This document shows positions 41,085 through 61,400 of a DNA stretch of 64,000 nt, one piece after another. How positions within the stretch are numbered: the first letter of the stretch is position 1; every line of letters begins with the position of its first letter. The stretch spans positions 1,488,001 through 1,552,000 of the forward strand of contig JAUFOQ010000010.1 of assembly GCA_040285855.1 (NCBI GenBank), given 5' to 3'. The notes under the pieces are model-generated. The model was not told the DNA's origin, made no database searches, and saw only the letters and a list, made by a program, of their open reading frames with translations. Source of the DNA: Eukaryota sp. GEM-RC1. Taxonomy: Eukaryota. The position numbers and the translations under genes were made by a program.

Positions 41085-43051
41085 ATGTCTCACTATCTCT
41101 GTGATATTTGTCATGAAATTCTCAAGAATCCGGTAACTACTTGGTGTGGCCACACCTTTTGTATGTCGGACTTGCAGGAATGGCTTGTTTCTCATAACGG
41201 ATGTCCGATCTGTCGAGCTGAAGTGGACAAGTCAAGGCTGTGTCCTAACTACAAGTTGAAAGAAGCTGTTGAAGCCTTTGTTGCTGGTCAAGGTGAGACT
41301 ATTTGTTTTGAGTGTGATGAAGCTGCTGCCACTTGTTATTGCGCAGAATGTGACGCCGATTTCTGTGACAAATGTTTTAACCCTGCTCATCGCCCCAAGT
41401 TGCTACGATCTCATGTTGCTGTCCCCCTAAATAAGAAGCATGCCTACCTTATTCCCAAGTGCCCCAGCCACAGTATGAAGTCGTTAGAGTTGTTCTGCAC
41501 CTTCTGCTCCGTCGCCCTTTGCTCCACTTGTGCTTTCCTTGGTGACCATGACCAACACAAAAGAAGTTGCTTCCCTTTGACGAAGGTCGAACCTCTGTTG
41601 AAAAGAATATCAACTCAATTAATCAAGAGTTGTCGTTAGCCATTGAAAAAATATCTCAGTCAGCTGAAGCTGCTATCCAGCAAGCAACAAGTGGTTTTGT
41701 CCAACTCAAAGAAAGTCTGACTGTCCTGCTCCAAGAAACTATGTTAGACTCTACCATTATGAATGACTTACAATCTGGGAAACCTGTCATGTTCAAGCCA
41801 AAGATCAGCGAAAAATTCACTACCACCACTTCAACCCTTCTCAACAACCAATCTGATATCATCTCCTCTTTAAATGAAGAACTTTTCTCCATCCACTCCG
41901 ATGCTTCTCGTCGTTTGACCTCTCTTTCCGTTGATTCGGAGTCTAGTGTTGGTTCTGATAGGCTTCTAGATGACACTCCTTTACCAATCAAGTCTATTGA
42001 AAGTGTATGCTCTGTACAACAAGTTGAAGAGAAGAAACTTGTTATTGATTGGAGCAAGCTTAGTTCTAAGTTGAAGAATTGTTATGATCAGATGGTGAGA
42101 AATGAGGTTTCTACGATCAATCTATATTACAACTCAATTGGTAAAGAAGGCGCTATTGCAATTGCTGAAGCTTTGAAGGTGAATTCTTCAGTTTCTCAGA
42201 TCGATCTAAATAACAACTCAATTGGTCCTGAAGGTGCTATTGCAATTGCTGAAGCTTTGAAGGTGAATTCTTCAGTTTCTACGATTGGTCTAGGTAACAA
42301 CTCAATTGGTCCTGAAGGTGCTATTGCAATTGCTGAAGCTTTGAAGGTGAATTCTTCAGTTTCTACGATCAATCTACATAGCAACTCAATTGGTCCTGAA
42401 GGTGCTATTGCTGAAGCTTTAAAGGTGAATTCTTCAGTTTCTACGATCGACCTATGTTTCAACTCAATTGGTCCTGAAGGTGCTATTGCAATTGCTGAAG
42501 CTTTGAAGGTGAATTCTTCAGTTTCTACGATCAATCTACATAGCAACTCAATTGGTCCTGAAGGTGCTATTGCAATTGCTGAAGCTTTAAAGGTGAATTC
42601 TTCAGTTTCTACGATCGACCTATGTTTCAACTCAATTGGTCCTGAAGGTGCTATTGCAATTGCTGAAGCTTTGAAGGTGAATTCTTCAGTTTCTACGATT
42701 TATCTACATAGCAACTCAATTGGTCCTGAAGGTGCTATTGCAATTGCTGAAGCTTTAAAGGTGAATTCTTCAGTTTCTACGATTTATCTACATAGCAACT
42801 CAATTGGTCCTGAAGGTGCTATTGCAATTGCTGAAGCTTTAAAGGTGAATTCTTCAGTTTCTACGATCAATCTAGGTGGTAACTCAATTGGTCCTGAAGG
42901 TGCTATTGCAATTGCTGAAGCTTTGAAGGTGAATTCTTCAGTTTCTACGATTTATCTACATAGCAACTCAATTAACAGTCAAACACAACAGTCGTTAAAA
43001 TCACTGCACAAGAATAGAATTAGTTTTCAAAGATATTTTCCTCTGATATAA
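41085..43051 (+). CDS. TRIM-like RING - B-box - B-box - coiled coil - LRR protein (putative E3 ligase); one single-base frameshift near 41590
   Basis: C3HC4 RING CDIC..CGHTFC..CPIC (sixth ligand appears to be Asp); B-box1 CFEC..CAECDADFCDKC..H..H; B-box2 CPSH..FCTFC..LCSTC..H..H; helical region; 11 28-aa LRRs. One extra A in GTCGAACC joins ORFs 41085 and 41567. Confidence 0.88.
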
Positions 43052-43461: not shown

Positions 43462-45273
43462 GTGTTCTATGAACCGGCTAGAATTTCCGATTTCTATCTA
43501 CATTACAACTCAATTGGTAAAGAAGGCGCTATTGCAATTGCTGAAGCTTTGAAGGTGAATTCGTCTGTTTCTACGATTGGTCTAGGTAACAACTCAATTG
43601 GTCCTGAAGGTGCTATTGCAATTGCTGAAGCTTTGAAGGTGAATTCTTCAGTTTCTACGATCAATCTACATAGCAACTCAATTGGTCCTGAAGGTGCTAT
43701 TGCAATTGCTGAAGCTTTGAAGGTGAATTCTTCAGTTTCTACGATTTATCTACATAGCAACTCAATTGGTCCTGAAGGTGCTATTGCAATTGCTGAAGCT
43801 TTGAAGGTGAATTCTTCAGTTTCTACGATTTATCTACATAGCAACTCAATTGGTCCTGAAGGTGCTATTGCAATTGCTGAAGCTTTGAAGGTGAATTCTT
43901 CAGTTTCTACGATTTATCTACATAGCAACTCAATTGGTCCTGAAGGTGCTATTGCAATTGCTGAAGCTTTGAAGGTGAATTCTTCAGTTTCTACGATTTA
44001 TCTACATAGCAACTCAATTGGTCCTGAAGGTGCTATTGCAATTGCTGAAGCTTTGAAGGTGAATTCTTCAGTTTCTACGATCAATCTAGGTGGTAACTCA
44101 ATTGGTAATGAAGGCGCTATTGCAATTGCTGAAGCTTTAAAGGTGAATTCTTCAGTTTCTACGATCAATCTACATAGCAACTCAATTGGTCCTGAAGGTG
44201 CTATTGCAATTGCTGAAGCTTTGAAGGTGAATTCTTCAGTTTCTACGATTGGTCTAGGTAACAACTCAGTTGGTCCTGAAGGCGCTATTGCAATTGCTGA
44301 AGCTTTGAAGGTGAATTCTTCAGTTTCTACGATCAATCTATATTACAACTCAGTTGGTCCTGAAGGCGCTACTGCAATTGCTGAAGCTTTGAAGGTGAAT
44401 TCTTCAGTTTCTGCGATTTATCTACATAGCAACTCAATTGGTCCTGAAGGTGCTATTGCAATTGCTGAAGCTTTGAAGGTGAATTCTTCAGTTTCTACGA
44501 TCAATCTACATAGCAACTCAATTGGTCCTGAAGGTGCTATTGCAATTGCTGAAGCTTTGAAGGTGAATTCTTCAGTTTCTACGATCAATCTACATAGCAA
44601 CTCAATTGGTCCTGAAGGTGCTATTGCAATTGCTGAAGCTTTGAAGGTGAATTCTTCAGTTTCTACGATCAATCTAGGTGGTAACTCAATTGGTAATGAA
44701 GGCGCTATTGCAATTGCTGAAGCTTTAAAGGTGAATTCTTCAGTTTCTACGATCGACCTATGTTTCAATTCAATTGGTCCTGAAGGTGCTATTGCAATTG
44801 CTGAAGCTTTAAAGGTGAATTCTTCAGTTTCTACGATCAATCTACATAGCAACTCAATTGGTCCTGAAGGTGCTATTGCAATTGCTGAAGCTTTAAAGGT
44901 GAATTCTTCAGTTTCTACGATCAATCTACATAGCAACTCAATTGGTCCTGAAGGTGCTATTGCAATTGCTGAAGCTTTGAAGGTGAATTCTTCAGTTTCT
45001 ACGATTTATCTACATAGCAACTCAATTGGTCCTGAAGGTGCTATTGCAATTGCTGAAGCTTTGAAGGTGAATTCTTCAGTTTCTACGATTTATCTACATA
45101 GCAACTCAATTGGTCCTGAAGGTGCTATTGCAATTGCTGAAGCTTTGAAGGTGAATTCTTCAGTTTCTACGATCAATCTACATAGCAACTCAATTAACAG
45201 TCAAACACAACAGTCGTTAAAATCACTGCACAAGAATAGAATTAGTTTTCAAAGATATTTTCCTCTGATATAA
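43462..45273 (+). CDS. LRR-only cassette 1 (20 units), no in-frame ATG
   Basis: Order GHYYYYNHGWYHHNDHHYYH (G=GLGN, H=NLHS, Y=YLHS, N=NLGG, D=DLCF, W=NLYY). Track start is GTG; upstream in-frame TGA at 43417. Confidence 0.7.
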   Translation: MFYEPARISDFYLHYNSIGKEGAIAIAEALKVNSSVSTIGLGNNSIGPEGAIAIAEALKVNSSVSTINLHSNSIGPEGAIAIAEALKVNSSVSTIYLHSNSIGPEGAIAIAEALKVNSSVSTIYLHSNSIGPEGAIAIAEALKVNSSVSTIYLHSNSIGPEGAIAIAEALKVNSSVSTIYLHSNSIGPEGAIAIAEALKVNSSVSTINLGGNSIGNEGAIAIAEALKVNSSVSTINLHSNSIGPEGAIAIAEALKVNSSVSTIGLGNNSVGPEGAIAIAEALKVNSSVSTINLYYNSVGPEGATAIAEALKVNSSVSAIYLHSNSIGPEGAIAIAEALKVNSSVSTINLHSNSIGPEGAIAIAEALKVNSSVSTINLHSNSIGPEGAIAIAEALKVNSSVSTINLGGNSIGNEGAIAIAEALKVNSSVSTIDLCFNSIGPEGAIAIAEALKVNSSVSTINLHSNSIGPEGAIAIAEALKVNSSVSTINLHSNSIGPEGAIAIAEALKVNSSVSTIYLHSNSIGPEGAIAIAEALKVNSSVSTIYLHSNSIGPEGAIAIAEALKVNSSVSTINLHSNSINSQTQQSLKSLHKNRISFQRYFPLI

Positions 45274-45803
45274 AGATCACCCCATGATAAGTCACACATG
45301 AACAAATATCAATGCGGTTTAGCAGTTGTTCATACACAGATTGATTTTCAGTTTTACCCGGTAATTAAGACTCGTCATATCGAAAAGTTCATTTGCTATT
45401 GTTTTCAACAACACCACGTATTAATTGGTATCTGGAAATGATGTAACATTATACTATATGTTTCGAAATATTTCGAATCACCGACACATTGTCTCGTCAT
45501 AAACACGGTTGTATTTTTTCTCAAAAAACAGCTTAATTGTCCTTGAGTTGAGTGATGCTTTGATTATTCTCAGTGATTTATAAGATGTACAGTATCCTTT
45601 TGTATCTATTCCATAGATATTTTAGTCATGGTAATTTATTAAATATTGGTCAAAATTAGGTTGTTCGTTAGTTTCTGTTTTAGTGATCTGTGATTTAATT
45701 GGAAATCTTGTCACACAATTGTCTTAACATACAAAGCAGGTTTTTGTTTATCTTAAATTGAGTTTATTATCTAACATTATCTAAGCTTCTGTTTACTGGA
45801 TAT

Positions 45804-46691
45804 GTGTTCTATGAACCGGCTAGAATTTCCGATTTCTATCTACATTACAACTCAATTGGTAAAGAAGGCGCTATTGCAATTGCTGAAGCTTTGAAGGTGA
45901 ATTCGTCTGTTTCTACGATTGGTCTAGGTAACAACTCAATTGGTCCTGAAGGTGCTATTGCAATTGCTGAAGCTTTGAAGGTGAATTCTTCAGTTTCTAC
46001 GATCAATCTACATAGCAACTCAATTGGTCCTGAAGGTGCTATTGCAATTGCTGAAGCTTTGAAGGTGAATTCTTCAGTTTCTACGATCAATCTAGGTGGT
46101 AACTCAATTGGTAATGAAGGCGCTATTGCAATTGCTGAAGCTTTAAAGGTGAATTCTTCAGTTTCTACGATCAATCTACATAGCAACTCAATTGGTCCTG
46201 AAGGTGCTATTGCAATTGCTGAAGCTTTGAAGGTGAATTCTTCAGTTTCTACGATCAATCTAGGTGGTAACTCAATTGGTAATGAAGGCGCTATTGCAAT
46301 TGCTGAAGCTTTAAAGGTGAATTTTTCAGTTTCTACGATCGACCTATGTTTCAACTCAATTGGTCCTGAAGGTGCTATTGCAATTGCTGAAGCTTTGAAG
46401 GTGAATTCTTCAGTTTCTACGATCAATCTACATAGCAACTCAATTGGTCCTGAAGGTGCTATTGCAATTGCTGAAGCTTTGAAGGTGAATTCTTCAGTTT
46501 CTACGATTTATCTACATAGCAACTCAATTGGACCTGAAGGTGCTATTGCAATTGCTGAAGCTTTGAAGGTGAATTCTTCAGTTTCTACGATTTATCTACA
46601 TAGCAACTCAATTAACAGTCAAACACAACAGTCGTTAAAATCACTGCACAAGAATAGAATTAGTTTCCAAAGATATTTTCCTCTGATATAA
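45804..46691 (+). CDS. LRR-only cassette 2 (9 units), no in-frame ATG
   Basis: Order GHNHNDHYY; same lead-in and C-cap as the other cassettes. Confidence 0.7.
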   Translation: MFYEPARISDFYLHYNSIGKEGAIAIAEALKVNSSVSTIGLGNNSIGPEGAIAIAEALKVNSSVSTINLHSNSIGPEGAIAIAEALKVNSSVSTINLGGNSIGNEGAIAIAEALKVNSSVSTINLHSNSIGPEGAIAIAEALKVNSSVSTINLGGNSIGNEGAIAIAEALKVNFSVSTIDLCFNSIGPEGAIAIAEALKVNSSVSTINLHSNSIGPEGAIAIAEALKVNSSVSTIYLHSNSIGPEGAIAIAEALKVNSSVSTIYLHSNSINSQTQQSLKSLHKNRISFQRYFPLI

Positions 46692-47221
46692 AGACCACCC
46701 CATGATAAGTCACACATGAACAAATATCAATGCGGTTTAGCAGTTGTTCATACACAGATTGATTTTCAGTTTTACCCGGTAATTAAGACTCGTCATATCG
46801 AAAAGTTCATTTGCTATTGTTTTCAACAACACCACTTATTAATTGGTATCTGGAAATGATGTAACATTATACTATATGTTTCGAAATATTTCGAATCACC
46901 GACACATTGTCTCGTCATAAACACGGTTGTATTTTTTCTCAAAAAACAGCTTAATTGTCCTTGAGTTGAGTGATGCTTTGATTATTCTCAGTGATTTATA
47001 AGATGTACAGTATCCTTTTGTATCTATTCCATAGATATTTTAGTCATGGTAATTTATTAAATATTGGTCAAAATTAGGTTGTTCGTTAGTTTCTGTTTTA
47101 GTGATCTGTGATTTAATTGGAAATCTTGTCACACAATTGTCTTAACATACAAAGCAGGTTTTTGTTTATCTTAAATTGAGTTTATTATCTAACATTATCT
47201 AAGCTTCTGTTTACTGGATAT

Positions 47222-49285
47222 GTGTTCTATGAACCGGCTAGAATTTCCGATTTCTATCTACATTACAACTCAATTGGTAAAGAAGGCGCTATTGCAATTG
47301 CTGAAGCTTTGAAGGTGAATTCGTCTGTTTCTACGATTGGTCTAGGTAACAACTCAATTGGTCCTGAAGGTGCTATTGCAATTGCTGAAGCTTTGAAGGT
47401 GAATTCTTCAGTTTCTACGATCAATCTACATAGCAACTCAATTGGTCCTGAAGGTGCTATTGCAATTGCTGAAGCTTTGAAGGTGAATTCTTCAGTTTCT
47501 ACGATCAATCTAGGTGGTAACTCAATTGGTAATGAAGGCGCTATTGCAATTGCTGAAGCTTTGAAGGTGAATTCTTCAGTTTCTACGATCAATCTAGGTG
47601 GTAACTCAATTGGTAATGAAGGCGCTATTGCAATTGCTGAAGCTTTAAAGGTGAATTCTTCAGTTTCTACGATCAATCTACATAGCAACTCAATTGGTCC
47701 TGAAGGTGCTATTGCAATTGCTGAAGCTTTGAAGGTGAATTCTTCAGTTTCTACGATCAATCTAGGTGGTAACTCAATTGGTAATGAAGGCGCTATTGCA
47801 ATTGCTGAAGCTTTAAAGGTGAATTTTTCAGTTTCTACGATCGACCTATGTTTCAACTCAATTGGTCCTGAAGGTGCTATTGCAATTGCTGAAGCTTTGA
47901 AGGTGAATTCTTCAGTTTCTACGATCAATCTACATAGCAACTCAATTGGTCCTGAAGGTGCTATTGCAATTGCTGAAGCTTTGAAGGTGAATTCTTCAGT
48001 TTCTACGATTTATCTACATAGCAACTCAATTGGTCCTGAAGGTGCTATTGCAATTGCTGAAGCTTTGAAGGTGAATTCTTCAGTTTCTACGATCAATCTA
48101 CATAGCAACTCAATTGGTCCTGAAGGTGCTATTGCAATTGCTGAAGCTTTGAAGGTGAATTCTTCAGTTTCTACGATCAATCTAGGTGGTAACTCAATTG
48201 GTAATGAAGGCGCTATTGCAATTGCTGAAGCTTTAAAGGTGAATTCTTCAGTTTCTACGATCGACCTATGTTTCAACTCAATTGGTCCTGAAGGTGCTAT
48301 TGCAATTGCTGAAGCTTTGAAGGTGAATTCTTCAGTTTCTACGATCAATCTACATAGCAACTCAATTGGTCCTGAAGGTGCTATTGCAATTGCTGAAGCT
48401 TTGAAGGTGAATTCTTCAGTTTCTACGATTTATCTACATAGCAACTCAATTGGTCCTGAAGGTGCTATTGCAATTGCTGAAGCTTTGAAGGTGAATTCTT
48501 CAGTTTCTACGATCAATCTACATAGCAACTCAATTGGTCCTGAAGGTGCTATTGCAATTGCTGAAGCTTTGAAGGTGAATTCTTCAGTTTCTACGATCAA
48601 TCTAGGTGGTAACTCAATTGGTAATGAAGGCGCTATTGCAATTGCTGAAGCTTTAAAGGTGAATTCTCCAGTTTCTACGATCGACCTATGTTTCAACTCA
48701 ATTGGTCCTGAAGGTGCTATTGCAATTGCTGAAGCTTTGAAGGTGAATTCTTCAGTATCTACGATCAATCTACATAGCAACTCAATTGGTCCTGAAGGTG
48801 CTATTGCAATTGCTGAAGCTTTGAAGGTGAATTCTTCAGTTTCTACGATCAATCTAGGTGGTAACTCAATTGGTAATGAAGGCGCTATTGCAATTGCTGA
48901 AGCTTTAAAGGTGAATTTTTCAGTTTCTACGATCGACCTATGTTTCAACTCAATTGGTCCTGAAGGTGCTATTGCAATTGCTGAAGCTTTGAAGGTGAAT
49001 TCTTCAGTTTCTACGATTTATCTACATAGCAACTCAATTGGACCTGAAGGTGCTATTGCAATTGCTGAAGCTTTGAAGGTGAATTCTTCAGTTTCTACGA
49101 TTTATCTACATAGCAACTCAATTGGACCTGAAGGTGCTATTGCAATTGCTGAAGCTTTGAAGGTGAATTCTTCAGTTTCTACGATTTATCTACATAGCAA
49201 CTCAATTAACAGTCAAACACAACAGTCGTTAAAATCACTGCACAAGAATAGAATTAGTTTCCAAAGATATTTTCCTCTGATATAA
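47222..49285 (+). CDS. LRR-only cassette 3 (23 units), no in-frame ATG
   Basis: Order GHNNHNDHYHNDHYHNDHNDYYY. Confidence 0.7.
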   Translation: MFYEPARISDFYLHYNSIGKEGAIAIAEALKVNSSVSTIGLGNNSIGPEGAIAIAEALKVNSSVSTINLHSNSIGPEGAIAIAEALKVNSSVSTINLGGNSIGNEGAIAIAEALKVNSSVSTINLGGNSIGNEGAIAIAEALKVNSSVSTINLHSNSIGPEGAIAIAEALKVNSSVSTINLGGNSIGNEGAIAIAEALKVNFSVSTIDLCFNSIGPEGAIAIAEALKVNSSVSTINLHSNSIGPEGAIAIAEALKVNSSVSTIYLHSNSIGPEGAIAIAEALKVNSSVSTINLHSNSIGPEGAIAIAEALKVNSSVSTINLGGNSIGNEGAIAIAEALKVNSSVSTIDLCFNSIGPEGAIAIAEALKVNSSVSTINLHSNSIGPEGAIAIAEALKVNSSVSTIYLHSNSIGPEGAIAIAEALKVNSSVSTINLHSNSIGPEGAIAIAEALKVNSSVSTINLGGNSIGNEGAIAIAEALKVNSPVSTIDLCFNSIGPEGAIAIAEALKVNSSVSTINLHSNSIGPEGAIAIAEALKVNSSVSTINLGGNSIGNEGAIAIAEALKVNFSVSTIDLCFNSIGPEGAIAIAEALKVNSSVSTIYLHSNSIGPEGAIAIAEALKVNSSVSTIYLHSNSIGPEGAIAIAEALKVNSSVSTIYLHSNSINSQTQQSLKSLHKNRISFQRYFPLI

Positions 49286-49815
49286 AGATCACCCCATGAT
49301 AAGTCACACATGAACAAATATCAATGCGGTTTAGCAGTTGTTCATACACAGATTGATTTTCAGTTTTACCCGGTAATTAAGACTCGTCATATCGAAAAGT
49401 TCATTTGCTATTGTTTTCAACAACACCACTTATTAATTGGTATCTGGAAATGATGTAACATTATACTATATGTTTCGAAATATTTCGAATCACCGACACA
49501 TTGTCTCGTCATAAACACGGTTGTATTTTTTCTCAAAAAACAGCTTAATTGTCCTTGAGTTGAGTGATGCTTTGATTATTCTCAGTGATTTATAAGATGT
49601 ACAGTATCCTTTTGTATCTATTCCATAGATATTTTAGTCATGGTAATTTATTAAATATTGGTCAAAATTAGGTTGTTCGTTAGTTTCTGTTTTAGTGATC
49701 TGTGATTTAATTGGAAATCTTGTCACACAATTGTCTTAACATACAAAGCAGGTTTTTGTTTATCTTAAATTGAGTTTATTATCTAACATTATCTAAGCTT
49801 CTGTTTACTGGATAT

Positions 49816-50787
49816 GTGTTCTATGAACCGGCTAGAATTTCCGATTTCTATCTACATTACAACTCAATTGGTAAAGAAGGCGCTATTGCAATTGCTGAAG
49901 CTTTGAAGGTGAATTCGTCTGTTTCTACGATTGGTCTAGGTAACAACTCAATTGGTCCTGAAGGTGCTATTGCAATTGCTGAAGCTTTGAAGGTGAATTC
50001 TTCAGTTTCTACGATCAATCTACATAGCAACTCAATTGGTCCTGAAGGTGCTATTGCAATTGCTGAAGCTTTGAAGGTGAATTCTTCAGTTTCTACGATC
50101 AATCTAGGTGGTAACTCAATTGGTAATGAAGGCGCTATTGCAATTGCTGAAGCTTTAAAGGTGAATTCTTCAGTTTCTACGATCGACCTATGTTTCAACT
50201 CAATTGGTCCTGAAGGTGCTATTGCAATTGCTGAAGCTTTGAAGGTGAATTCTTCAGTTTCTACGATCAATCTACATAGCAACTCAATTGGTCCTGAAGG
50301 TGCTATTGCAATTGCTGAAGCTTTGAAGGTGAATTCTTCAGTTTCTACGATCAATCTAGGTGGTAACTCAATTGGTAATGAAGGCGCTATTGCAATTGCT
50401 GAAGCTTTAAAGGTGAATTTTTCAGTTTCTACGATCGACCTATGTTTCAACTCAATTGGTCCTGAAGGTGCTATTGCAATTGCTGAAGCTTTGAAGGTGA
50501 ATTCTTCAGTTTCTACGATCAATCTACATAGCAACTCAATTGGTCCTGAAGGTGCTATTGCAATTGCTGAAGCTTTGAAGGTGAATTCTTCAGTTTCTAC
50601 GATTTATCTACATAGCAACTCAATTGGACCTGAAGGTGCTATTGCAATTGCTGAAGCTTTGAAGGTGAATTCTTCAGTTTCTACGATTTATCTACATAGC
50701 AACTCAATTAACAGTCAAACACAACAGTCGTTAAAATCACTGCACAAGAATAGAATTAGTTTCCAAAGATATTTTCCTCTGATATAA
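49816..50787 (+). CDS. LRR-only cassette 4 (10 units), no in-frame ATG
   Basis: Order GHNDHNDHYY. Confidence 0.7.
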   Translation: MFYEPARISDFYLHYNSIGKEGAIAIAEALKVNSSVSTIGLGNNSIGPEGAIAIAEALKVNSSVSTINLHSNSIGPEGAIAIAEALKVNSSVSTINLGGNSIGNEGAIAIAEALKVNSSVSTIDLCFNSIGPEGAIAIAEALKVNSSVSTINLHSNSIGPEGAIAIAEALKVNSSVSTINLGGNSIGNEGAIAIAEALKVNFSVSTIDLCFNSIGPEGAIAIAEALKVNSSVSTINLHSNSIGPEGAIAIAEALKVNSSVSTIYLHSNSIGPEGAIAIAEALKVNSSVSTIYLHSNSINSQTQQSLKSLHKNRISFQRYFPLI

Positions 50788-51317
50788 AGATCACCCCATG
50801 ATAAGTCACACATGAACAAATATCAATGCGGTTTAGCAGTTGTTCATACACAGATTGATTTTCAGTTTTACCCGGTAATTAAGACTCGTCATATCGAAAA
50901 GTTCATTTGCTATTGTTTTCAACAACACCACTTATTAATTGGTATCTGGAAATGATGTAACATTATACTATATGTTTCGAAATATTTCGAATCACCGACA
51001 CATTGTCTCGTCATAAACACGGTTGTATTTTTTCTCAAAAAACAGCTTAATTGTCCTTGAGTTGAGTGATGCTTTGATTATTCTCAGTGATTTATAAGAT
51101 GTACAGTATCCTTTTGTATCTATTCCATAGATATTTTAGTCATGGTAATTTATTAAATATTGGTCAAAATTAGGTTGTTCGTTAGTTTCTGTTTTAGTGA
51201 TCTGTGATTTAATTGGAAATCTTGTCACACAATTGTCTTAACATACAAAGCAGGTTTTTGTTTATCTTAAATTGAGTTTATTATCTAACATTATCTAAGC
51301 TTCTGTTTACTGGATAT

Positions 51318-52205
51318 GTGTTCTATGAACCGGCTAGAATTTCCGATTTCTATCTACATTACAACTCAATTGGTAAAGAAGGCGCTATTGCAATTGCTGA
51401 AGCTTTGAAGGTGAATTCGTCTGTTTCTACGATTGGTCTAGGTAACAACTCAATTGGTCCTGAAGGTGCTATTGCAATTGCTGAAGCTTTGAAGGTGAAT
51501 TCTTCAGTTTCTACGATCAATCTACATAGCAACTCAATTGGTCCTGAAGGTGCTATTGCAATTGCTGAAGCTTTGAAGGTGAATTCTTCAGTTTCTACGA
51601 TCAATCTAGGTGGTAACTCAATTGGTAATGAAGGCGCTATTGCAATTGCTGAAGCTTTAAAGGTGAATTCTTCAGTTTCTACGATCGACCTATGTTTCAA
51701 CTCAATTGGTCCTGAAGGTGCTATTGCAATTGCTGAAGCTTTGAAGGTGAATTCTTCAGTTTCTACGATCAATCTACATAGCAACTCAATTGGTCCTGAA
51801 GGTGCTATTGCAATTGCTGAAGCTTTGAAGGTGAATTCTTCAGTTTCTACGATCAATCTAGGTGGTAACTCAATTGGTAATGAAGGCGCTATTGCAATTG
51901 CTGAAGCTTTAAAGGTGAATTTTTCAGTTTCTACGATCGACCTCTGTTTCAACTCAATTGGTCCTGAAGGTGCTATTGCAATTGCTGAAGCTTTGAAGGT
52001 GAATTCTTCAGTTTCTACGATCAATCTACATAGCAACTCAATTGGTCCTGAAGGTGCTATTGCAATTGCTGAAGCTTTGAAGGTGAATTCTTCAGTTTCT
52101 ACGATTTATCTACATAGCAACTCAATTAACAGTCAAACACAACAGTCGTTAAAATCACTGCACAAGAATAGAATTAGTTTCCAAAGATATTTTCCTCTGA
52201 TATAA
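51318..52205 (+). CDS. LRR-only cassette 5 (9 units), no in-frame ATG
   Basis: Order GHNDHNDHY. Confidence 0.7.
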   Translation: MFYEPARISDFYLHYNSIGKEGAIAIAEALKVNSSVSTIGLGNNSIGPEGAIAIAEALKVNSSVSTINLHSNSIGPEGAIAIAEALKVNSSVSTINLGGNSIGNEGAIAIAEALKVNSSVSTIDLCFNSIGPEGAIAIAEALKVNSSVSTINLHSNSIGPEGAIAIAEALKVNSSVSTINLGGNSIGNEGAIAIAEALKVNFSVSTIDLCFNSIGPEGAIAIAEALKVNSSVSTINLHSNSIGPEGAIAIAEALKVNSSVSTIYLHSNSINSQTQQSLKSLHKNRISFQRYFPLI

Positions 52206-52735
52206 AGATCACCCCATGATAAGTCACACATGAACAAATATCAATGCGGTTTAGCAGTTGTTCATACACAGATTGATTTTCAGTTTTACCCGGTAATTAA
52301 GACTCGTCATATCGAAAAGTTCATTTGCTATTGTTTTCAACAACACCACTTATTAATTGGTATCTGGAAATGATGTAACATTATACTATATGTTTCGAAA
52401 TATTTCGAATCACCGACACATTGTCTCGTCATAAACACGGTTGTATTTTTTCTCAAAAAACAGCTTAATTGTCCTTGAGTTGAGTGATGCTTTGATTATT
52501 CTCAGTGATTTATAAGATGTACAGTATCCTTTTGTATCTATTCCATAGATATTTTAGTCATGGTAATTTATTAAATATTGGTCAAAATTAGGTTGTTCGT
52601 TAGTTTCTGTTTTAGTGATCTGTGATTTAATTGGAAATCTTGTCACACAATTGTCTTAACATACAAAGCAGGTTTTTGTTTATCTTAAATTGAGTTTATT
52701 ATCTAACATTATCTAAGCTTCTGTTTACTGGATAT

Positions 52736-54799
52736 GTGTTCTATGAACCGGCTAGAATTTCCGATTTCTATCTACATTACAACTCAATTGGTAAAGAAGG
52801 CGCTATTGCAATTGCTGAAGCTTTGAAGGTGAATTCGTCTGTTTCTACGATTGGTCTAGGTAACAACTCAATTGGTCCTGAAGGTGCTATTGCAATTGCT
52901 GAAGCTTTGAAGGTGAATTCTTCAGTTTCTACGATCAATCTACATAGCAACTCAATTGGTCCTGAAGGTGCTATTGCAATTGCTGAAGCTTTGAAGGTGA
53001 ATTCTTCAGTTTCTACGATCAATCTAGGTGGTAACTCAATTGGTAATGAAGGCGCTATTGCAATTGCTGAAGCTTTAAAGATGAATTCTTCAGTTTCTAC
53101 GATCGACCTATGTTTCAACTCAATTGGTCCTGAAGGTGCTATTGCAATTGCTGAAGCTTTGAAGGTGAATTCTTCAGTTTCTACGATCAATCTACATAGC
53201 AACTCAATTGGTCCTGAAGGTGCTATTGCAATTGCTGAAGCTTTGAAGGTGAATTCTTCAGTTTCTACGATCAATCTAGGTGGTAACTCAATTGGTAATG
53301 AAGGCGCTATTGCAATTGCTGAAGCTTTAAAGGTGAATTTTTCAGTTTCTACGATCGACCTCTGTTTCAACTCAATTGGTCCTGAAGGTGCTATTGCAAT
53401 TGCTGAAGCTTTGAAGGTGAATTCTTCAGTTTCTACGATCAATCTACATAGCAACTCAATTGGTCCTGAAGGTGCTATTGCAATTGCTGAAGCTTTGAAG
53501 GTGAATTCTTCAGTTTCTACGATTTATCTACATAGCAACTCAATTGGTCCTGAAGGTGCTATTGCAATTGCTGAAGCTTTGAAGGTGAATTCTTCAGTTT
53601 CTACGATTTATCTACATAGCAACTCAATTGGTCCTGAAGGTGCTATTGCAATTGCTGAAGCTTTGAAGGTGAATTCTTCAGTTTCTACGATCAATCTAGG
53701 TGGTAACTCAATTGGTAATGAAGGCGCTATTGCAATTGCTGAAGCTTTAAAGGTGAATTCTTCAGTTTCTACGATCAATCTACATAGCAACTCAATTGGT
53801 CCTGAAGGTGCTATTGCAATTGCTGAAGCTTTGAAGGTGAATTCTTCAGTTTCTACGATCAATCTATATTACAACTCAGTTGGTCCTGAAGGCGCTACTG
53901 CAATTGCTGAAGCTTTGAAGGTGAATTCTTCAGTTTCTGCGATTTATCTACATAGCAACTCAATTGGTCCTGAAGGTGCTATTGCAATTGCTGAAGCTTT
54001 GAAGGTGAATTCTTCAGTTTCTGCGATTTATCTACATAGCAACTCAATTGGTCCTGAAGGTGCTATTGCAATTGCTGAAGCTTTGAAGGTGAATTCTTCA
54101 GTTTCTACGATCAATCTACATAGCAACTCAATTGGTCCTGAAGGTGCTATTGCAATTGCTGAAGCTTTGAAGGTGAATTCTTCAGTTTCTACGATCAATC
54201 TACATAGCAACTCAATTGGTCCTGAAGGTGCTATTGCAATTGCTGAAGCTTTGAAGGTGAATTCTTCAGTTTCTACGATCAATCTAGGTGGTAACTCAAT
54301 TGGTAATGAAGGCGCTATTGCAATTGCTGAAGCTTTAAAGGTGAATTCTTCAGTTTCTACGATCGACCTATGTTTCAACTCAATTGGTCCTGAAGGTGCT
54401 ATTGCAATTGCTGAAGCTTTGAAGGTGAATTCTTCAGTTTCTACGATCAATCTACATAGCAACTCAATTGGTCCTGAAGGTGCTATTGCAATTGCTGAAG
54501 CTTTGAAGGTGAATTCTTCAGTTTCTACGATTTATCTACATAGCAACTCAATTGGTCCTGAAGGTGCTATTGCAATTGCTGAAGCTTTGAAGGTGAATTC
54601 TTCAGTTTCTACGATTTATCTACATAGCAACTCAATTGGTCCTGAAGGTGCTATTGCAATTGCTGAAGCTTTGAAGGTGAATTCTTCAGTTTCTACGATC
54701 AATCTACATAGCAACTCAATTAACAGTCAAACACAACAGTCGTTAAAATCACTGCACAAGAATAGAATTAGTTTTCAAAGATATTTTCCTCTGATATAA
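52736..54799 (+). CDS. LRR-only cassette 6 (23 units), chimeric
   Basis: Order GHNDHNDHYYNHWYYHHNDHYYH. Its only in-frame ATG is an internal GTG>ATG change at 53081. Confidence 0.7.
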   Translation: MFYEPARISDFYLHYNSIGKEGAIAIAEALKVNSSVSTIGLGNNSIGPEGAIAIAEALKVNSSVSTINLHSNSIGPEGAIAIAEALKVNSSVSTINLGGNSIGNEGAIAIAEALKMNSSVSTIDLCFNSIGPEGAIAIAEALKVNSSVSTINLHSNSIGPEGAIAIAEALKVNSSVSTINLGGNSIGNEGAIAIAEALKVNFSVSTIDLCFNSIGPEGAIAIAEALKVNSSVSTINLHSNSIGPEGAIAIAEALKVNSSVSTIYLHSNSIGPEGAIAIAEALKVNSSVSTIYLHSNSIGPEGAIAIAEALKVNSSVSTINLGGNSIGNEGAIAIAEALKVNSSVSTINLHSNSIGPEGAIAIAEALKVNSSVSTINLYYNSVGPEGATAIAEALKVNSSVSAIYLHSNSIGPEGAIAIAEALKVNSSVSAIYLHSNSIGPEGAIAIAEALKVNSSVSTINLHSNSIGPEGAIAIAEALKVNSSVSTINLHSNSIGPEGAIAIAEALKVNSSVSTINLGGNSIGNEGAIAIAEALKVNSSVSTIDLCFNSIGPEGAIAIAEALKVNSSVSTINLHSNSIGPEGAIAIAEALKVNSSVSTIYLHSNSIGPEGAIAIAEALKVNSSVSTIYLHSNSIGPEGAIAIAEALKVNSSVSTINLHSNSINSQTQQSLKSLHKNRISFQRYFPLI

Positions 54800-55329
54800 A
54801 GATCACCCCATGATAAGTCACACATGAACAAATATCAATGCGGTTTAGCAGTTGTTCATACACAGATTGATTTTCAGTTTTACCCGGTAATTAAGACTCG
54901 TCATATCGAAAAGTTCATTTGCTATTGTTTTCAACAACACCACGTATTAATTGGTATCTGGAAATGATGTAACATTATACTATATGTTTCGAAATATTTC
55001 GAATCACCGACACATTGTCTCGTCATAAACACGGTTGTATTTTTTCTCAAAAAACAGCTTAATTGTCCTTGAGTTGAGTGATGCTTTGATTATTCTCAGT
55101 GATTTATAAGATGTACAGTATCCTTTTGTATCTATTCCATAGATATTTTAGTCATGGTAATTTATTAAATATTGGTCAAAATTAGGTTGTTCGTTAGTTT
55201 CTGTTTTAGTGATCTGTGATTTAATTGGAAATCTTGTCACACAATTGTCTTAACATACAAAGCAGGTTTTTGTTTATCTTAAATTGAGTTTATTATCTAA
55301 CATTATCTAAGCTTCTGTTTACTGGATAT

Positions 55330-56301
55330 GTGTTCTATGAACCGGCTAGAATTTCCGATTTCTATCTACATTACAACTCAATTGGTAAAGAAGGCGCTAT
55401 TGCAATTGCTGAAGCTTTGAAGGTGAATTCGTCTGTTTCTACGATTGGTCTAGGTAACAACTCAATTGGTCCTGAAGGTGCTATTGCAATTGCTGAAGCT
55501 TTGAAGGTGAATTCTTCAGTTTCTACGATCAATCTACATAGCAACTCAATTGGTCCTGAAGGTGCTATTGCAATTGCTGAAGCTTTGAAGGTGAATTCTT
55601 CAGTTTCTACGATCAATCTAGGTGGTAACTCAATTGGTAATGAAGGCGCTATTGCAATTGCTGAAGCTTTAAAGGTGAATTCTTCAGTTTCTACGATCGA
55701 CCTATGTTTCAACTCAATTGGTCCTGAAGGTGCTATTGCAATTGCTGAAGCTTTGAAGGTGAATTCCTCAGTTTCTACGATCAATCTACATAGCAACTCA
55801 ATTGGTCCTGAAGGTGCTATTGCAATTGCTGAAGCTTTGAAGGTGAATTCTTCAGTTTCTACGATCAATCTAGGTGGTAACTCAATTGGTAATGAAGGCG
55901 CTATTGCAATTGCTGAAGCTTTAAAGGTGAATTTTTCAGTTTCTACGATCGACCTATGTTTCAACTCAATTGGTCCTGAAGGTGCTATTGCAATTGCTGA
56001 AGCTTTGAAGGTGAATTCTTCAGTTTCTACGATCAATCTACATAGCAACTCAATTGGTCCTGAAGGTGCTATTGCAATTGCTGAAGCTTTGAAGGTGAAT
56101 TCTTCAGTTTCTACGATTTATCTACATAGCAACTCAATTGGACCTGAAGGTGCTATTGCAATTGCTGAAGCTTTGAAGGTGAATTCTTCAGTTTCTACGA
56201 TTTATCTACATAGCAACTCAATTAACAGTCAAACACAACAGTCGTTAAAATCACTGCACAAGAATAGAATTAGTTTCCAAAGATATTTTCCTCTGATATA
56301 A
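55330..56301 (+). CDS. LRR-only cassette 7 (10 units), same protein as cassette 4
   Basis: Order GHNDHNDHYY; a synonymous TCT>TCC change near 55767 distinguishes it from cassette 4. Confidence 0.7.
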   Translation: MFYEPARISDFYLHYNSIGKEGAIAIAEALKVNSSVSTIGLGNNSIGPEGAIAIAEALKVNSSVSTINLHSNSIGPEGAIAIAEALKVNSSVSTINLGGNSIGNEGAIAIAEALKVNSSVSTIDLCFNSIGPEGAIAIAEALKVNSSVSTINLHSNSIGPEGAIAIAEALKVNSSVSTINLGGNSIGNEGAIAIAEALKVNFSVSTIDLCFNSIGPEGAIAIAEALKVNSSVSTINLHSNSIGPEGAIAIAEALKVNSSVSTIYLHSNSIGPEGAIAIAEALKVNSSVSTIYLHSNSINSQTQQSLKSLHKNRISFQRYFPLI

Positions 56302-56603
56302 AGATCACCCCATGATAAGTCACACATGAACAAATATCAATGCGGTTTAGCAGTTGTTCAAACACAGATTGATTTTCAGTTTTACCCGGTAATTAAGACT
56401 CGTCATATCGAAAAGTTCATTTGCTATTGTTTTCAACCACACCACGTATTAATTGGTATCTGGAAATGATGTAACATTATACTATATGTTTCGAAATATT
56501 TCGAATCACCGACACATTGTTTCGTCATAAACACGGTTGTATTTTTTCTCAAAAAACAGCTTAATTGTCCTTGAGTTGAGTGATGCTTTGATTATTCTCA
56601 GTG

Positions 56604-57787
56604 ACTCTAACAACGTAGATATTAAGTGAACGTTACCAATGGAATCGATAAGCTCGAAAATTTTGAAAACTTCAACCCGATACTCATCTGGAAAATTTAA
56701 AAGTTCACTGGTTTTTGAGTCCAAATGATGGTCATTCTTGTAAAGCTCAATTAAACATTTAAACAACCAAACAGGATCAACAACAGGTAACAGAGAAGTG
56801 ATAAAAGAAACTCTTAGGGGGAAAGGTTGTTCATATTCCATTTCTTCAAAAATTTCAAAAAGCTCCGAATTTTGATCAACGAAGTAGAATTGGTTATGTT
56901 CATTAGAAATTTTTAAGAGAGATAAAACATCTTCTTCTGAAAAGAATTCGAATCAAGAAAGTTTTGGCAAGCTGATTCCAACTGGTCTACTTGGAAATAA
57001 ACTGCTAATTGAAAAAGTTGTAAAATATTTGAAATTTTGAAATCAATGAAATTCTGGTAATGAAAAAGGTCGAAAAAAAGACACAAAACATCTTCAGATA
57101 CGCCCGAAAATTCATCAGTATATTCAAAAATTCTCACGTTTGAATCTTCAAAATCACAAGTAAATACATTCTGAAACATTTTTGAAAACGAAATCAATAG
57201 AACAGAATTCAATTTAATAGATGCATTGTTGTAAGAAACATGTACATCTTTAGTGCAAGCTTCTACAATTTTTAAAACTATCTTTTTGAGTCTAATTTAA
57301 AATTGTTACTCTCAAAGTTTGTAAGTCCATTTGTTATTCTCTCAGTAACAAACTCACTTAACTCCTGGAACTGAAGAAGAGAAGCAATGATAGAAAGCGT
57401 AGGGACATTTTCAGGAGTAACAGTAAGTGATTGTCCATAGAGAGTTGACAGGACTGAGAAGAAGATATCAGGATCTGTAAGAAAAGGAAATAGTGGGAAT
57501 TCTACTGTGGTAGAGTACAGACTCTTCTCCCTAAGAACAGGACTGAAAGCACCGACGACGAAGGAATGACAGTGGAAAGAGTTGCCATCGTAGGTAATGA
57601 CAGTGTCAGTAAGATGGTTGTCTCTTTGAAGGGAATAGAGGTTGTTGCAGAAGCAATCTTAAGGGAAGCAATAAGTATTTGGAAGGTCAAGACTATCTAG
57701 AACTCGAGGGCGTTTAGAAGGAGGACTTTTGACGTCAGTGTTGTTGGAAGTTTTAGAAGAGAGTCGAGCATCCCTTGAACTGGGCAT
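56604..57787 (-). pseudogene. BTB-BTB protein paralog, 3'-truncated at the LRR array boundary
   Basis: Colinear with 15722-14525. In-frame TAA near 57660 (TCA in the paralog) and shifts. Homology stops after ISTLLE at 56604. Confidence 0.85.
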
Positions 57788-58471
57788 AGTGACTAAGATG
57801 AATAGGCAAAGTACAGTGCAAAGACAGTTAACTACTTACTGTAGACAACACTGTAAATGGTGGTTCAATTAGTTGTATGTTCAATCCAAATCATAAAACA
57901 TAGGTTAGTTGACATGACATCATCAAACGACCAACAAGTGGAGTCAGTGTGACTCGTGCCGTCTCCTAACTCACATTGAAAGAGATACTGTGATTGCTTC
58001 TGTTCACCATAAAGCACAACACTTAATTACAGAAGAGATCACAGCAGCTGGTTTTCTGACCACCATGAGCCAACATCCCAACACGAATCTCCGATGATCG
58101 TCGAAAATATCTTCGTCTGATAATTATGTGTGTAAATCTAAACATGACATTATACTGTATTCAAATTTAAACCTCATTTGCAGAATAATCGCCAGTGATG
58201 ACAGCTGGACAGTACTTACATTCAACTCTGGGATCATGGTTTCCACATCCATTATCCGGAGTTTGGTCTTGAAGAACAATATTTTGAATATGTTTTGAAC
58301 TTAACCACCAAATCAGCCGTTTTGAAACTCAAAGTCATCTTTACATTTTCATTCAATAAATTCAATTGATTTAAATTTCTTTGGCAACATCCTTATTGCG
58401 AGCAAAGACGATAGTTGAATTTTGGACATTCTTTTCTAGTGATTAGTACTTTAACAAAATGCTCTTCATAT

Positions 58472-61400
58472 ATTTATCAAACGAACCAGAATTGTGAAAA
58501 TATTAGTTCTTTTGAAGCGGCTGGTATGTTCTCGTTTCTTCCAATAACTGTTTAATGATTGTATATAGCTTTCAATAAATCCACATGAGGGTACTTCAAT
58601 CATGAATATGGCATTAATGACCAAAATAAGGTCAATGGCAGTAGATATTGAACGTGATTTCCTCTTCGTGCGAAGCTATTGAGTGGATGAGAAATACAAA
58701 GGTGTCCCTGTTTTTGGTGTAGCAAAGGGTTCGTTTTTGCCAATAATTGAATAAAAGTAATGTTACTTTAGAAAAGATGAATAAGCTAGATGGTAAAACA
58801 ACAACAACAGTTTAAATTACTGAGAATAACTTAAGGTAACGTAAGGTAAAGAATAATATTATTCTTGTTTGACTATTAGTGAGTTTACTATAATCTTGAC
58901 AGAAATCCTTCAAATACTACAGTAATGTCCATTTCCTTGAATGATTGCTCCTCTTCCATTGTTTTTGGTGAAGGAAGAACATTGTGAAATCTTGTCTTAT
59001 AGAACCTAGACATGCATCTGCTCTTCTGATTCTATCTACTCCATCGATCTGGGTATTCACCTCTCTCACGTTACTTCTCGCCTCATAACTACCATCTCTG
59101 CTATGAGTTCTACAATCCTTACAATCTCATCCTCCTCACTTATCAAATTGCTATGGATTACTTGGAGGAGTTATCATTCTCCACGATTCCAGTCTCAAAG
59201 CGTCTTCTTCTTTCATCCATCATACTAGTGATGATGCACTCTATGCTTTCCAAAAGTCATCTGCCTCTGTTCATAACATCACTTATCACATCACTTCTGC
59301 TGATGGTGACCTCTTCTATGTGTATTTCTCCCCTTTCTACGGCTTCTTCATCAACTCTTCCTACAGTCATGCCAAGAATGGTGATGTCGATTTCCTTGTC
59401 AAATATACTCTGCTCTTTGCTTTTGCTGAACTCCAGTTTCTCCTCTGCTGAGGAGAGGATGCTGGTTATATCGACGGTTTTTGGTCTTTGAAGTTGACAT
59501 TATCAGTGTGTCTGATGTTTACCAGAGTACCATTGAGTTCTTCTAAAAAACTACCAAATTAACTTATCCCAAAGAGTGTTTGCTGACGTTATCAACACGT
59601 GTCAGTAACACGTGTTTTCCTCATTTGGTCAGCTACTTCCCCGTATTACTCTGATGATGTGTATATTGTTAATCTCAGAATCATCTATACCAATTAGATT
59701 GACCATGATCTCTTCTTGTTTCCATTTTACTTGTTTCAACGATATTTTGAGTGATCACATCATCACACGTGTTTTGGGCGTGTTAAATTTTTGTCTGCAT
59801 TTTTAATTTTTATTGGTGGAATAATCTGGTACCGTATCACACGTGTTTTTGGTGGCTCTTTTTAGTATCACTTCACAATGTTTTGTACCCTGTTTAAAAA
59901 TCATGTTCTGGACCAGTTGGTGTTTTTACAGTCTAAGGTTTACATGGTCATCTTCTTTGTGTAGTTCTATGCAGTGGAGAAAGAAATTTTCCACACTGAG
60001 AATTTCACTATTTCACGAATTTCCATACATCATTCATATTTAGTTTTTTTATTTAGATTATTTTTAGTTCAGTTCGATTTAGCAAAAATCTCCTAGATCT
60101 ATGTATCTTAGATCTTTGTATATCGTTGGAGTTTTGATATACGGGCCAGAGTTTTAGCCATATTGGGACAATTTCAAGGTTTGAGAGGATGGCTTTGACT
60201 ATAGCTTTGTCAGACAAGGCATTCATAGTTTTGTCGTTGTCTAGAAGAATTGCTTGTGTTCTCTGGAAAACGCGATGTAATCGGTTGATGAAATCACCCC
60301 ATCGTTCCTCTGGGTCGTTGATTGACCAGTTCATTTTGACTTTGTTTATCTCATTGAGCGCAAGAGTTACGTCTGTAAACTGTGTACGTTTAAGCAATGC
60401 TATCCAAAGTTGAAGAGGGGTGGTACCGTTCCATTCGCGTGACATAGACAATTGAGTCTGGATGTTGAATTTTACGAACCGTTGAATATACGAAGGGATC
60501 ATAACCACTGTTCGAACAAAGTCGAAGAAGTGGCGTGTTGAATGTTAGGAGTCGAAACAATTCTGATCTAACTTACACTTAGTAATGAAGGCTTGAGCTC
60601 TAGTATGACCTTTTTGTTTGGACGAGCTTTAAAGAGCACGTGCAGCACGTTGAGGAACTTGGATTCTATTTCTAAGCATGAGCAATCTACAATAACAGCA
60701 ATCAGAGTTTTCACAAAAGACCAATTTTGTAAAATTGTCTTTTTGACTTTTTCGTAGTTGATAACGGTAATATAGATCATTCGGTACACCGTTTGCTTGA
60801 ATTGTAACATCCTTCACAAACAACACTACCCAGGAATTTTACGCACTTAGAGGAGTATCCAAAGTATCGTTCAGCTCTTTCAGTTGTCCAACCGAGATGC
60901 TGCGACATTCCTCTTTCAAGCTGGCTTTCTTAAAGGCTAATATATTCAGCAGAGTTGACGTTTTCCAGAGAAACTCCGATAGAGAATGTATACAGTTTTC
61001 TTTTGTCGTTGTCAGTAGTTGACCAGTTCAACACCCATCCACTAATGGTCTCTGCGGTAACAGATAAATTCGTACGTTCCACCACATTCAAACAAAAACT
61101 TGGGATCTGCGTCAGGATGTGCAAGTAATTGGTGATGTTGAACGAGAGAGTTATAAACGGAGATGAAAATGTCCTGGAGGTTAGTTGGCTTGATATAATA
61201 TTCTTTGTAAATGCTCTGATAATTGAGTAGCACGCTGATATGAAGAGTCATTCAACGCCTTGAAAAAGATGGGACTTAATAGTTCAAGAATCATGCCAGA
61301 CTGTACTGAAAGAAAACTTTGTAAGGATTGAAACCCTCTTTCAGGACGAAACTGGATAACCAAAGGTATGATATTCTCATTAGAGTTGGTGATTGTCTTG

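What the first reader, a model, noticed from the sequence alone, without database searches (positions are those of the whole stretch)
51318..54960. Cassette 6 is a recombinant of cassette 5 (5' part) and cassette 1 (3' part)
Seen: cassette 6 begins GHNDHNDHY like cassette 5 and shares its private GACCTCTGT variant (about 51943 and 53362; others have GACCTATGT). Its second half has features otherwise found only in cassette 1: NLYYN-SVGPEGAT, VSAIY and a final H unit. It also has C-cap AGTTTTCAA (cassettes 2-5 and 7 have AGTTTCCAA) and spacer CCACGTATT (spacers after cassettes 2-5 have CCACTTATT). Inference: out-of-register unequal crossover or conversion between non-adjacent cassettes creates new module orders. 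Linked private SNPs also argue against a purely collapsed assembly.
Basis: partly seen in the sequence, partly recalled or inferred. Interest (0 to 1): 0.7.

Follow-up and report, generated by a model that had tools for sequence, protein, structure and literature searches.

The report
Mosaic LRR cassette from unequal crossover
In a single-celled eukaryote, the repeat-coding tail of a TRIM-like gene is copied seven times in a row, and the sixth copy is a patchwork of two others, likely the ordinary result of misaligned crossing-over between near-identical repeats, although an assembly join of two alleles is not excluded.

Summary
The mosaic is in the sequence. A RING/B-box/LRR gene (41085-43051) is followed by seven headless tandem copies of its 84-bp LRR array, cap and 3' flank. 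Cassette 6 (52781-54799) is cassette-4/5/7-like up to a junction at 53442-53545 and cassette-1-like after it. The cassette-1 assignment is strong: four linked derived variants, and 1,323 bp with one mismatch running on into the next cassette. The cassette-5 assignment rests on one synonymous base, and cassette 5 may be a later daughter of cassette 6, not its parent. Best reading: unequal crossover in a concertedly evolving repeat array, as described for Podospora HNWD and Tetrahymena LRR genes. It reorders seven surface types that the head gene already has. The cassettes have no in-frame start and no convincing splice acceptor, and no recent long tract is shared with the head gene, so a VLR-like donor archive is not supported. 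No reads were listed, so a join of two haplotypes remains open (about 17%). The closest homologues are skoliomonad (metamonad) proteins with hypervariable LRR strands.

The parts
41085..41562 (+). Head gene, 5' part: ATG, RING finger (sixth ligand Asp) and B-box region; the frame shifts at a four-A run, 41559-41562
   Evidence: Pfam zf-C3HC4_2 E 1.3e-9 and zf-B_box E 1.9e-11; 134-135 of 158 residues identical to P0001, P0004, P0122; paralogues run through in one frame
41558..43051 (+). Head gene, 3' part: linker (coiled coil inferred from position), 10 LRR units from 42131, C-cap and stop
43507..45273 (+). Cassette 1: 20 LRR units and cap; type source of the 3' half of cassette 6 (from 43832 on)
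45849..46691 (+). Cassette 2: 9 units and cap; its LRR array is cassette 4 minus one unit
   Evidence: one switch, no mismatch
47267..49285 (+). Cassette 3: 23 units and cap; itself a patchwork of cassette-2/4-like tracts
   Evidence: five switches, two private bases
49861..50787 (+). Cassette 4: 10 units and cap; its LRR array differs from cassette 7 by one base
51363..52205 (+). Cassette 5: 9 units and cap; carries the synonymous A>C at 51944
50629..53545 (+). 1,418-bp tandem doublet (50629-52127 = 52047-53545, one mismatch at 53081) that contains cassette 5 and the front of cassette 6
52781..53545 (+). Cassette 6, 5' part: units 1-9, cassette-4/5/7 type, with the shared A>C at 53362 and a private G>A at 53081
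53442..53545 (+). Junction interval under the simplest model (inferred): cassette-1 identity can start at 53442 and cassette-5 identity ends at 53545
53442..54799 (+). Cassette 6, 3' part: cassette-1 type units with derived variants at 53879, 53898, 53939, 54023, final NLHS unit, cap T at 54775
54376..55698 (+). 1,323 bp equal to 44850-46172 but for one base (54421): end of cassette 6, spacer (G at 54944) and start of cassette 7
55375..56301 (+). Cassette 7: 10 units and cap, cassette-4 type
56302..56603 (+). Terminal, truncated spacer with three private bases; joins a cut BTB-like/Sel1 family gene on the minus strand

Best explanation
Cassette 6 is a mosaic of a cassette-4/5/7-type front and a cassette-1-type back, likely made by an unequal crossover between misaligned 84-bp LRR units in a tandem array of headless, probably silent copies of a TRIM-like gene's tail. 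Shown: the array, the mosaic, the junction interval, the continuation of cassette-1-type sequence through cap and spacer into cassette 7, and the absence of an in-frame start. Inferred order of events: (1) a tandem duplication with one break at the first LRR unit and the other in the 3' flank made the first headless copy; (2) near-identical units and spacers then allowed repeated unequal exchange, giving cassette 1 and the shorter 4/7 type; (3) an exchange between a 4/7-type cassette and a cassette-1-type one duplicated the block from cassette 1 unit 4 to the array end, giving cassettes 6 and 7; (4) single-unit gains and losses followed; (5) a late 1,418-bp duplication gave cassette 5. The process reorders binding-surface modules but adds no new surface type beyond one point change (T23A). 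It is most likely a by-product of the repeat shuffling that diversifies the intact genes of this family.
For: Donor pair 1+5 is best of 28 donor sets, and only cassette 6 gains from a second donor. The 3' part costs 4.03 from cassette 1 against 15.06 from the next best; the 5' part costs 1.0, 2.0, 3.0 from cassettes 5, 4, 7 and 6.03 from cassette 1. Identity continues across cap, spacer and into cassette 7 (1,323 bp, one mismatch), as a crossover predicts. The two blocks 43832-46993 and 53442-56603 differ by two 84-bp indels, rearranged units and six isolated substitutions, so they are not one molecule read twice. The cap and spacer variants, 169 bp apart, show all four combinations among 8 tails. 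The first and last spacers carry most private changes, an edge effect expected of unequal crossover (own knowledge). All 114 units keep frame. A second 3'-partial tandem duplication of the same anatomy lies at 8567-12957. Precedent: PMC1805685, PMC13449251, PMC6564038 (passages).
Against: No single molecule was seen across the junction. The window shows one-base indels at homopolymer runs (41559-41562, 5068, 9372/11567, 10328/12524), the pattern of a long-read consensus with residual errors, so structure in repeats may also be imperfect. The history is not unique: crossover, long conversion and the direction between cassettes 5 and 6 cannot be separated from one sequence. The second half of the spacer has no counterpart elsewhere in the window, so step 1 is not reconstructed. 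Synonymous changes are 7 of 13 among framework alleles absent from the head gene, against 3.9 expected (P about 0.06), a faint hint that the cassettes are not fully neutral.
Confidence: 0.63

Rival explanations
1. Assembly artefact: two haplotypes or cell lines with different arrays were joined in series, out of register inside the LRR units. Cassette 6's back half and cassette 7 would be the allele of cassettes 1 and 2.
For: It gives exactly the same sequence as a crossover between homologues. The two blocks have the same length, 3,162 bp. Homopolymer indels show an imperfect consensus. The 1,418-bp doublet differs at one base only.
Against: The markers to be phased (53362 and 53879-53939) are under 600 bp apart, within one long read. 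Run lengths in the spacers (T6, A6 in 8 of 8; T5 in 7 of 7 full spacers) are uniform and 114 units have no frameshift. A same-haplotype chimera is excluded by the unit-level and base differences between the blocks.
Confidence: 0.17
2. Long-tract gene conversion: cassette 6 was a copy of cassette 5 whose back end, cap and spacer were overwritten from cassette 1 without crossover.
For: Leaves cassette 5 intact next to the hybrid, as seen; conversion is invoked for repeat exchange between genes in PMC13449251 (passage).
Against: The tract would exceed 1.5 kb (53.5 to at least 54944), add about 14 units, and end somewhere in the invariant spacer; the terminal spacer also carries the cassette-1-type G, which a block duplication explains without a second event.
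Confidence: 0.08
3. Silent donor archive: the headless cassettes are kept as templates that are copied into the expressed TRIM-like gene to change its binding surface, as lamprey VLR cassettes are; shuffling among cassettes stocks the archive.
For: Seven frame-intact, start-less cassettes lie directly behind one head gene. Variation sits at LRR positions 23, 25, 27, 28 and 5, in the window and in 45 units of seven paralogues; 23, 25 and 27 lie on the predicted beta strand. In Podospora, repeats of pseudogenes exchange with active loci (PMC1805685, passages).
Against: The head array shares at most 182 bp exactly with any cassette, against 250-581 bp among cassettes; 5 of its 8 unit types are its own; it has 0 of 10 NE units against 20 of 104 in cassettes (weak alone). 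The head gene has its own full array, and as written a frameshift. The cassettes are rearranged themselves, unlike VLR donors (PMC3308329, passage). Open frames are expected anyway from so few mutations (chance of no stop among 13 changes 0.66).
Confidence: 0.08
4. Alternative last exons: the RING/B-box part is spliced to any one of the eight LRR arrays.
For: A GTGAGA at 42095 and an AG ending at 43443 (repeated before each cassette, with CTAAC upstream) are both phase 0 and would give an open frame.
Against: The GTGAGA is coding sequence (MVRNE) conserved in paralogues. CTAAC-N6-10-AG occurs 18 times in 96,570 bases outside the array with no preferred spacing. The 8-nt gap is longer than in the fused diplomonad motifs quoted in PMC6679479 (passages). 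The intron consensus of this organism is unknown.
Confidence: 0.04

Closest known systems
Podospora HNWD/NWD genes and other NLRs with high internal conservation (PMC1805685, PMC13449251; passages and section 12 read)
   Same: Near-identical repeat units with a few hypervariable positions; gain, loss and shuffling of units ascribed to unequal crossover and conversion; intact repeats kept in broken loci.
   Different: LRR instead of WD40; RING/B-box head and no NACHT or NB-ARC domain; the extra arrays are adjacent headless tandem copies; no population or functional data here.
Tetrahymena 90-bp-exon LRR genes (PMC6564038; passages read)
   Same: Large, young protist LRR family scrambled by ectopic recombination; variable unit number among paralogues.
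   Different: Here units are 84 bp with no introns between them; no retrotransposon was identified in the spacers.
Lamprey VLR loci (PMC3308329; passages read); Borrelia vlsE and trypanosome VSG archives (recalled, not read)
   Same: Incomplete cassettes beside one gene; LRR modules varying at concave-face positions (VLR).
   Different: The head gene is complete apart from a frameshift, the cassettes are whole tail copies that rearrange among themselves, and no recent long shared tract with the head was found.
TRIM/RBCC ubiquitin ligases (PMC3503706; passages read)
   Same: RING followed by B-boxes at the N terminus of the head gene and its paralogues.
   Different: C-terminal domain is a ribonuclease-inhibitor/NOD2-like LRR array; that paper has 0 occurrences of 'leucine' or 'LRR'; RING ligand 6 is Asp.

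Membership tests
TRIM/RBCC E3 ligases (head gene) | N-terminal RING finger | tested here: met
   PF13923 38.2 bits (cut-off 27), PF00097 31.2 (21); sixth ligand is Asp in the head and in 3 of 4 aligned paralogues with a RING
TRIM/RBCC E3 ligases (head gene) | One or two B-boxes after the RING | tested here: met
   PF00643 44.4 bits, 2 stretches
TRIM/RBCC E3 ligases (head gene) | Coiled coil after the B-box | not tested
   inferred from position only
TRIM/RBCC E3 ligases (head gene) | One continuous reading frame | tested here: inconclusive
   frame shifts at an A run; paralogues P0001, P0004, P0122, P0009 are continuous; similar homopolymer slips elsewhere in the window suggest a sequence error
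TRIM/RBCC E3 ligases (head gene) | Ubiquitin ligase activity | not testable with these tools
   needs an assay
Concertedly evolving repeat arrays with high internal conservation (HNWD-like) | Near-identical units at DNA level | tested here: met
   114 units fall into 26 DNA types; 90-92% matches within cassettes 2-7
Concertedly evolving repeat arrays with high internal conservation (HNWD-like) | A few hypervariable surface positions | tested here: met
   entropy 1.4-3.1 bits at positions 5, 23, 25, 27, 28 in 45 paralogue units, at most 0.69 elsewhere; strand position from the model; no dN/dS test was run
Concertedly evolving repeat arrays with high internal conservation (HNWD-like) | Unit number and order vary by recombination | tested here: met
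   9 to 23 units per array
Concertedly evolving repeat arrays with high internal conservation (HNWD-like) | Length polymorphism between isolates | not testable with these tools
   no second sequence of the locus was obtained
NLR (NACHT/NB-ARC + repeats) | Central STAND ATPase | tested here: not met
   no such Pfam hit in either part of the head gene
Silent-cassette conversion system (VLR-like) | Headless cassettes beside one gene | tested here: met
   seven cassettes without an in-frame start
Silent-cassette conversion system (VLR-like) | Recent donor tracts in the expressed gene | tested here: not met
   longest exact match head-to-cassette 182 bp; 5 of 8 head unit types private
Silent-cassette conversion system (VLR-like) | Donors stay unrearranged | tested here: not met
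   cassettes 2, 3, 5, 6 are rearranged relative to the others
Silent-cassette conversion system (VLR-like) | Cell-to-cell diversity at the expressed locus and a dedicated enzyme | not testable with these tools
   needs reads, transcripts and the whole genome
Alternative last-exon array | Real 3' splice site before each cassette | tested here: inconclusive
   in-frame AG exists but is not above background

The most novel reading that the evidence does not exclude
A free-living anaerobic protist diversifies a TRIM-like ubiquitin ligase by keeping a tandem archive of headless LRR cassettes that shuffle among themselves and are copied or crossed into the expressed gene, a VLR-like variable receptor wired to an E3 ligase. 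One crossover between the head array and any cassette would already give the head a new in-frame binding surface.
Probability: 0.1. Interest if true: 0.75.

Novelty: new variant of a known kind. Interest (0 to 1): 0.32.

Why it matters
The mosaic itself is what unequal crossover does in any array of near-identical repeats, and the process is described for fungal NLRs and ciliate LRR genes. What is less ordinary is the setting: a RING/B-box gene family in a metamonad whose LRR strands vary at a few positions, and a locus where 104 spare LRR units sit in frame behind one head. If population or transcript data showed flow from cassettes into the head gene, this would be a compact, testable case of receptor diversification in a unicellular eukaryote. 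On present evidence it is a clean snapshot of repeat shuffling in probably silent gene tails.

Tried and rejected
Reads: no run was listed for 39500-43500, so phasing, depth and expression were not tested; this is no evidence either way. No whole genome was available, so other loci of this organism were not examined. A 29-nt cap pattern had 0 matches in metagenome contigs. No earlier findings by place, sequence or words. The spacer has no convincing protein similarity to 31 named paralogues and no match below E 0.1 elsewhere in the window. No branch-point-to-AG spacing peak was found. The sigma-70 scan does not apply to a eukaryote and was not used. Rejected: 'cassette 6 is a verbatim copy of cassette 1 and 5 reads'; 'cap T is a derived cassette-1 marker' (the head gene has it); 'single parent plus internal slips' (cost 11.07 vs 6.04). 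The four-gamete count among units (73 of 231 site pairs) was not relied on, because multi-allelic sites and recurrent change inflate it. Literature: the search for 'silent cassettes' + 'gene conversion' + 'leucine-rich repeat' gave 0 papers; among the 20 of 194 and 12 of 3,791 listed no title or abstract opening concerns TRIM-LRR genes of metamonads; (false duplications) was seen as a listing only. No supplements were opened.
Full report
Setting. The window is eukaryotic in content and 35.7% G+C. From 42107 to 56223 it holds an array of 84-bp units encoding a 28-residue LRR of the ribonuclease-inhibitor/NOD2 type: Pfam LRR_6, sequence hits to RI-like and NOD2 structures, a model with mean pLDDT 85.4 and one strand plus one helix per unit, and fold matches of the same class. 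The first array belongs to a gene that starts at 41085 with a RING finger and B-boxes. The four best homologues of its 3' part are hypothetical proteins named from Eukaryota sp. GEM-RC1, 78-89% identical. PMC11316075 (abstract, passages, sections 6 and 17) describes GEM-RC as a skoliomonad, a free-living metamonad, with repeat-rich genomes assembled from nanopore reads and corrected with short reads. I infer a skoliomonad-like host; whether the window comes from such an assembly is not known.

Anatomy. The head gene has 10 units. Seven cassettes follow with 20, 9, 23, 10, 9, 23 and 10 units; each has the same cap and, for cassettes 1-6, the same tail of 662 bp from cap to next unit (542 bp after the head gene). 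Each cassette opens with the KEG marker of the head's first unit, has no RING/B-box part, and has no in-frame ATG in the 150 bases before it: both ATGs there are out of frame. The 114 units form 26 DNA types; 113 are 84 nt and one is 78 nt, so all keep frame. The head gene's frame shifts at a four-A run (41559-41562) where paralogues read on in one frame. One-base slips at homopolymer runs also occur at 5068 and are the only two differences between the copies of a 2.2-kb duplication, so a consensus error is likely, but a real lesion is not excluded.

The observation. GACCTCTGT is in 2 of 113 units (51944, 53362). I3V, I9T, T23A and the YY end are confined to cassettes 1 and 6 among full units. 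Two markers are less specific than stated: cap T is also in the head gene, and spacer G also follows cassette 7. The opening order GHNDHNDHY is shared with cassettes 4 and 7.

Test of mosaicism. I explained each array as in-register copies of the others, at a cost of about 1 per switch or mismatch. Cassette 6 costs 6.04 with donors 1+5, 7.04 with 1+4, 8.04 with 1+7, 11.07 with cassette 1 alone and 15.07 at best without cassette 1. With caps and spacers included, a second donor saves 5.03 for cassette 6 and at most 1.01 for the other seven arrays; 0 of 500 shuffles of unit order did as well. So the 3' assignment is firm, and the choice of cassette 5 over 4 rests on one synonymous base. Under the simplest model the junction lies between 53442 and 53545.

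Mechanism. Two long matches order the events. First, 44850-46172 equals 54376-55698 with one mismatch: cassette-1-type sequence runs on through cap and spacer into cassette 7. This fits a crossover that duplicated the block from cassette 1 unit 4 to the array end. The two blocks are both 3,162 bp and differ by two 84-bp indels, rearranged units around the YY/SAIY modules and six isolated substitutions, so this event is the older one or involved a diverged allele. Second, 50629-52127 equals 52047-53545 with one mismatch. A single late 1,418-bp duplication explains why cassette 5 has nine units, carries the A>C variant and lacks the GGA variant of cassette 4's last unit. Cassette 5 is therefore as likely the daughter of cassette 6 as its parent (inference). 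Cassette 6 is not alone in being rearranged: cassette 2 is cassette 4 minus one unit and cassette 3 needs five switches. The cap and spacer variants show all four combinations among eight tails. A second 3'-partial tandem duplication at 8567-12957, with about one base of junction homology, leaves a headless gene piece in the same way, so the anatomy needs no dedicated machinery.

What is shuffled. Amino-acid variation concentrates at unit positions 25, 27, 28 and 5 in the window, and also 23 in 45 units of seven named paralogues. Positions 23-27 form the predicted strand; that 23, 25 and 27 face the ligand-binding concave side is my own knowledge of this fold. The window has 8 surface types in 113 units and the seven paralogues 31 in 45. 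Seven of the 8 are already in the head gene, counting the NLYY before its first full unit, so the cassettes add order and number, not new chemistry, apart from T23A.

Evidence against a donor archive. The head array shares at most 182 bp exactly with any cassette, while cassettes share 250-581 bp with each other; 5 of its 8 unit types are its own; it has no NE unit (0 of 10 against 20 of 104). Intact frames are expected from so few changes. In favour, synonymous changes are 7 of 13 against 3.9 expected (P about 0.06), and Podospora pseudogene repeats exchange with active loci (PMC1805685, passages). An in-frame donor/acceptor pair exists but is not above background and does not match the diplomonad spacing quoted in PMC6679479 (passages).

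Assembly risk. A chimera of one haplotype is excluded by the differences between the blocks. A join of two haplotypes would give the same string as a crossover and cannot be excluded without reads. The markers lie under 600 bp apart and the array shows no frameshift, which lowers but does not remove the risk; I put it at about 17%.

Comparison and verdict. The process matches concerted evolution of high-internal-conservation repeats in Podospora (PMC1805685 passages; PMC13449251 passages and section 12) and LRR scrambling in Tetrahymena (PMC6564038 passages). The locus is not an NLR (no ATPase domain) and fails two tested features of a VLR-like system (PMC3308329 passages). The RING/B-box plus hypervariable LRR architecture was not met in the searches or in PMC3503706 (passages), which is a limited look. 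Observation confirmed, interpretation partly supported, new variant of a known kind, interest 0.32.

Noticed in passing
window 8567-12957: 2.2-kb tandem duplication of the 3' part of an LRR-like gene (7221-9305) plus its flank, leaving a headless second copy; the copies differ only by one A in each of two A runs. Very recent duplication or false duplication.
   Followed up: partly
window 1-812, 13298-15749, 56603-57787 (minus strand): Three copies of a gene family with a BTB-like N terminus (label from my reading of the sequence, not from a call) and Sel1 repeats; the copy after cassette 7 is cut at 56603 where the last spacer ends, and several copies have frame slips.
   Followed up: partly
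window 41085-41220: The RING has Asp at the sixth zinc-ligand position (CMSD), kept in 3 of 4 aligned paralogues with a RING; it also scores as U-box.
   Followed up: no
window 43020-43051 and each cassette cap: The cap reads on as RISFQRYFPLI where most paralogues stop after RIxF, suggesting loss of a stop codon before the cassettes were copied.
   Followed up: no
window 45580-45830 (and each full spacer): The second half of the spacer has no counterpart outside the array in this window; its origin is unexplained. The first spacer lacks about 120 bp of it.
   Followed up: partly
window 32357-35020 and 58463-61188: Dispersed 2.7-kb duplication at 91.6% identity.
   Followed up: no
window 40009-40123: Perfect 52-bp tandem duplication about 1 kb upstream of the head gene.
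   Followed up: no
window 16035-18884 and 31625-32359: Broken reading frames whose translations look to me like reverse-transcriptase/endonuclease and integrase/chromodomain remnants of retroelements (resemblance recalled, not tested).
   Followed up: no
P0002, P0003: Two named paralogues, 93-94% identical to the head gene's linker, are annotated as starting only after the B-box region, so their 5' parts may be broken or mis-annotated too.
   Followed up: no
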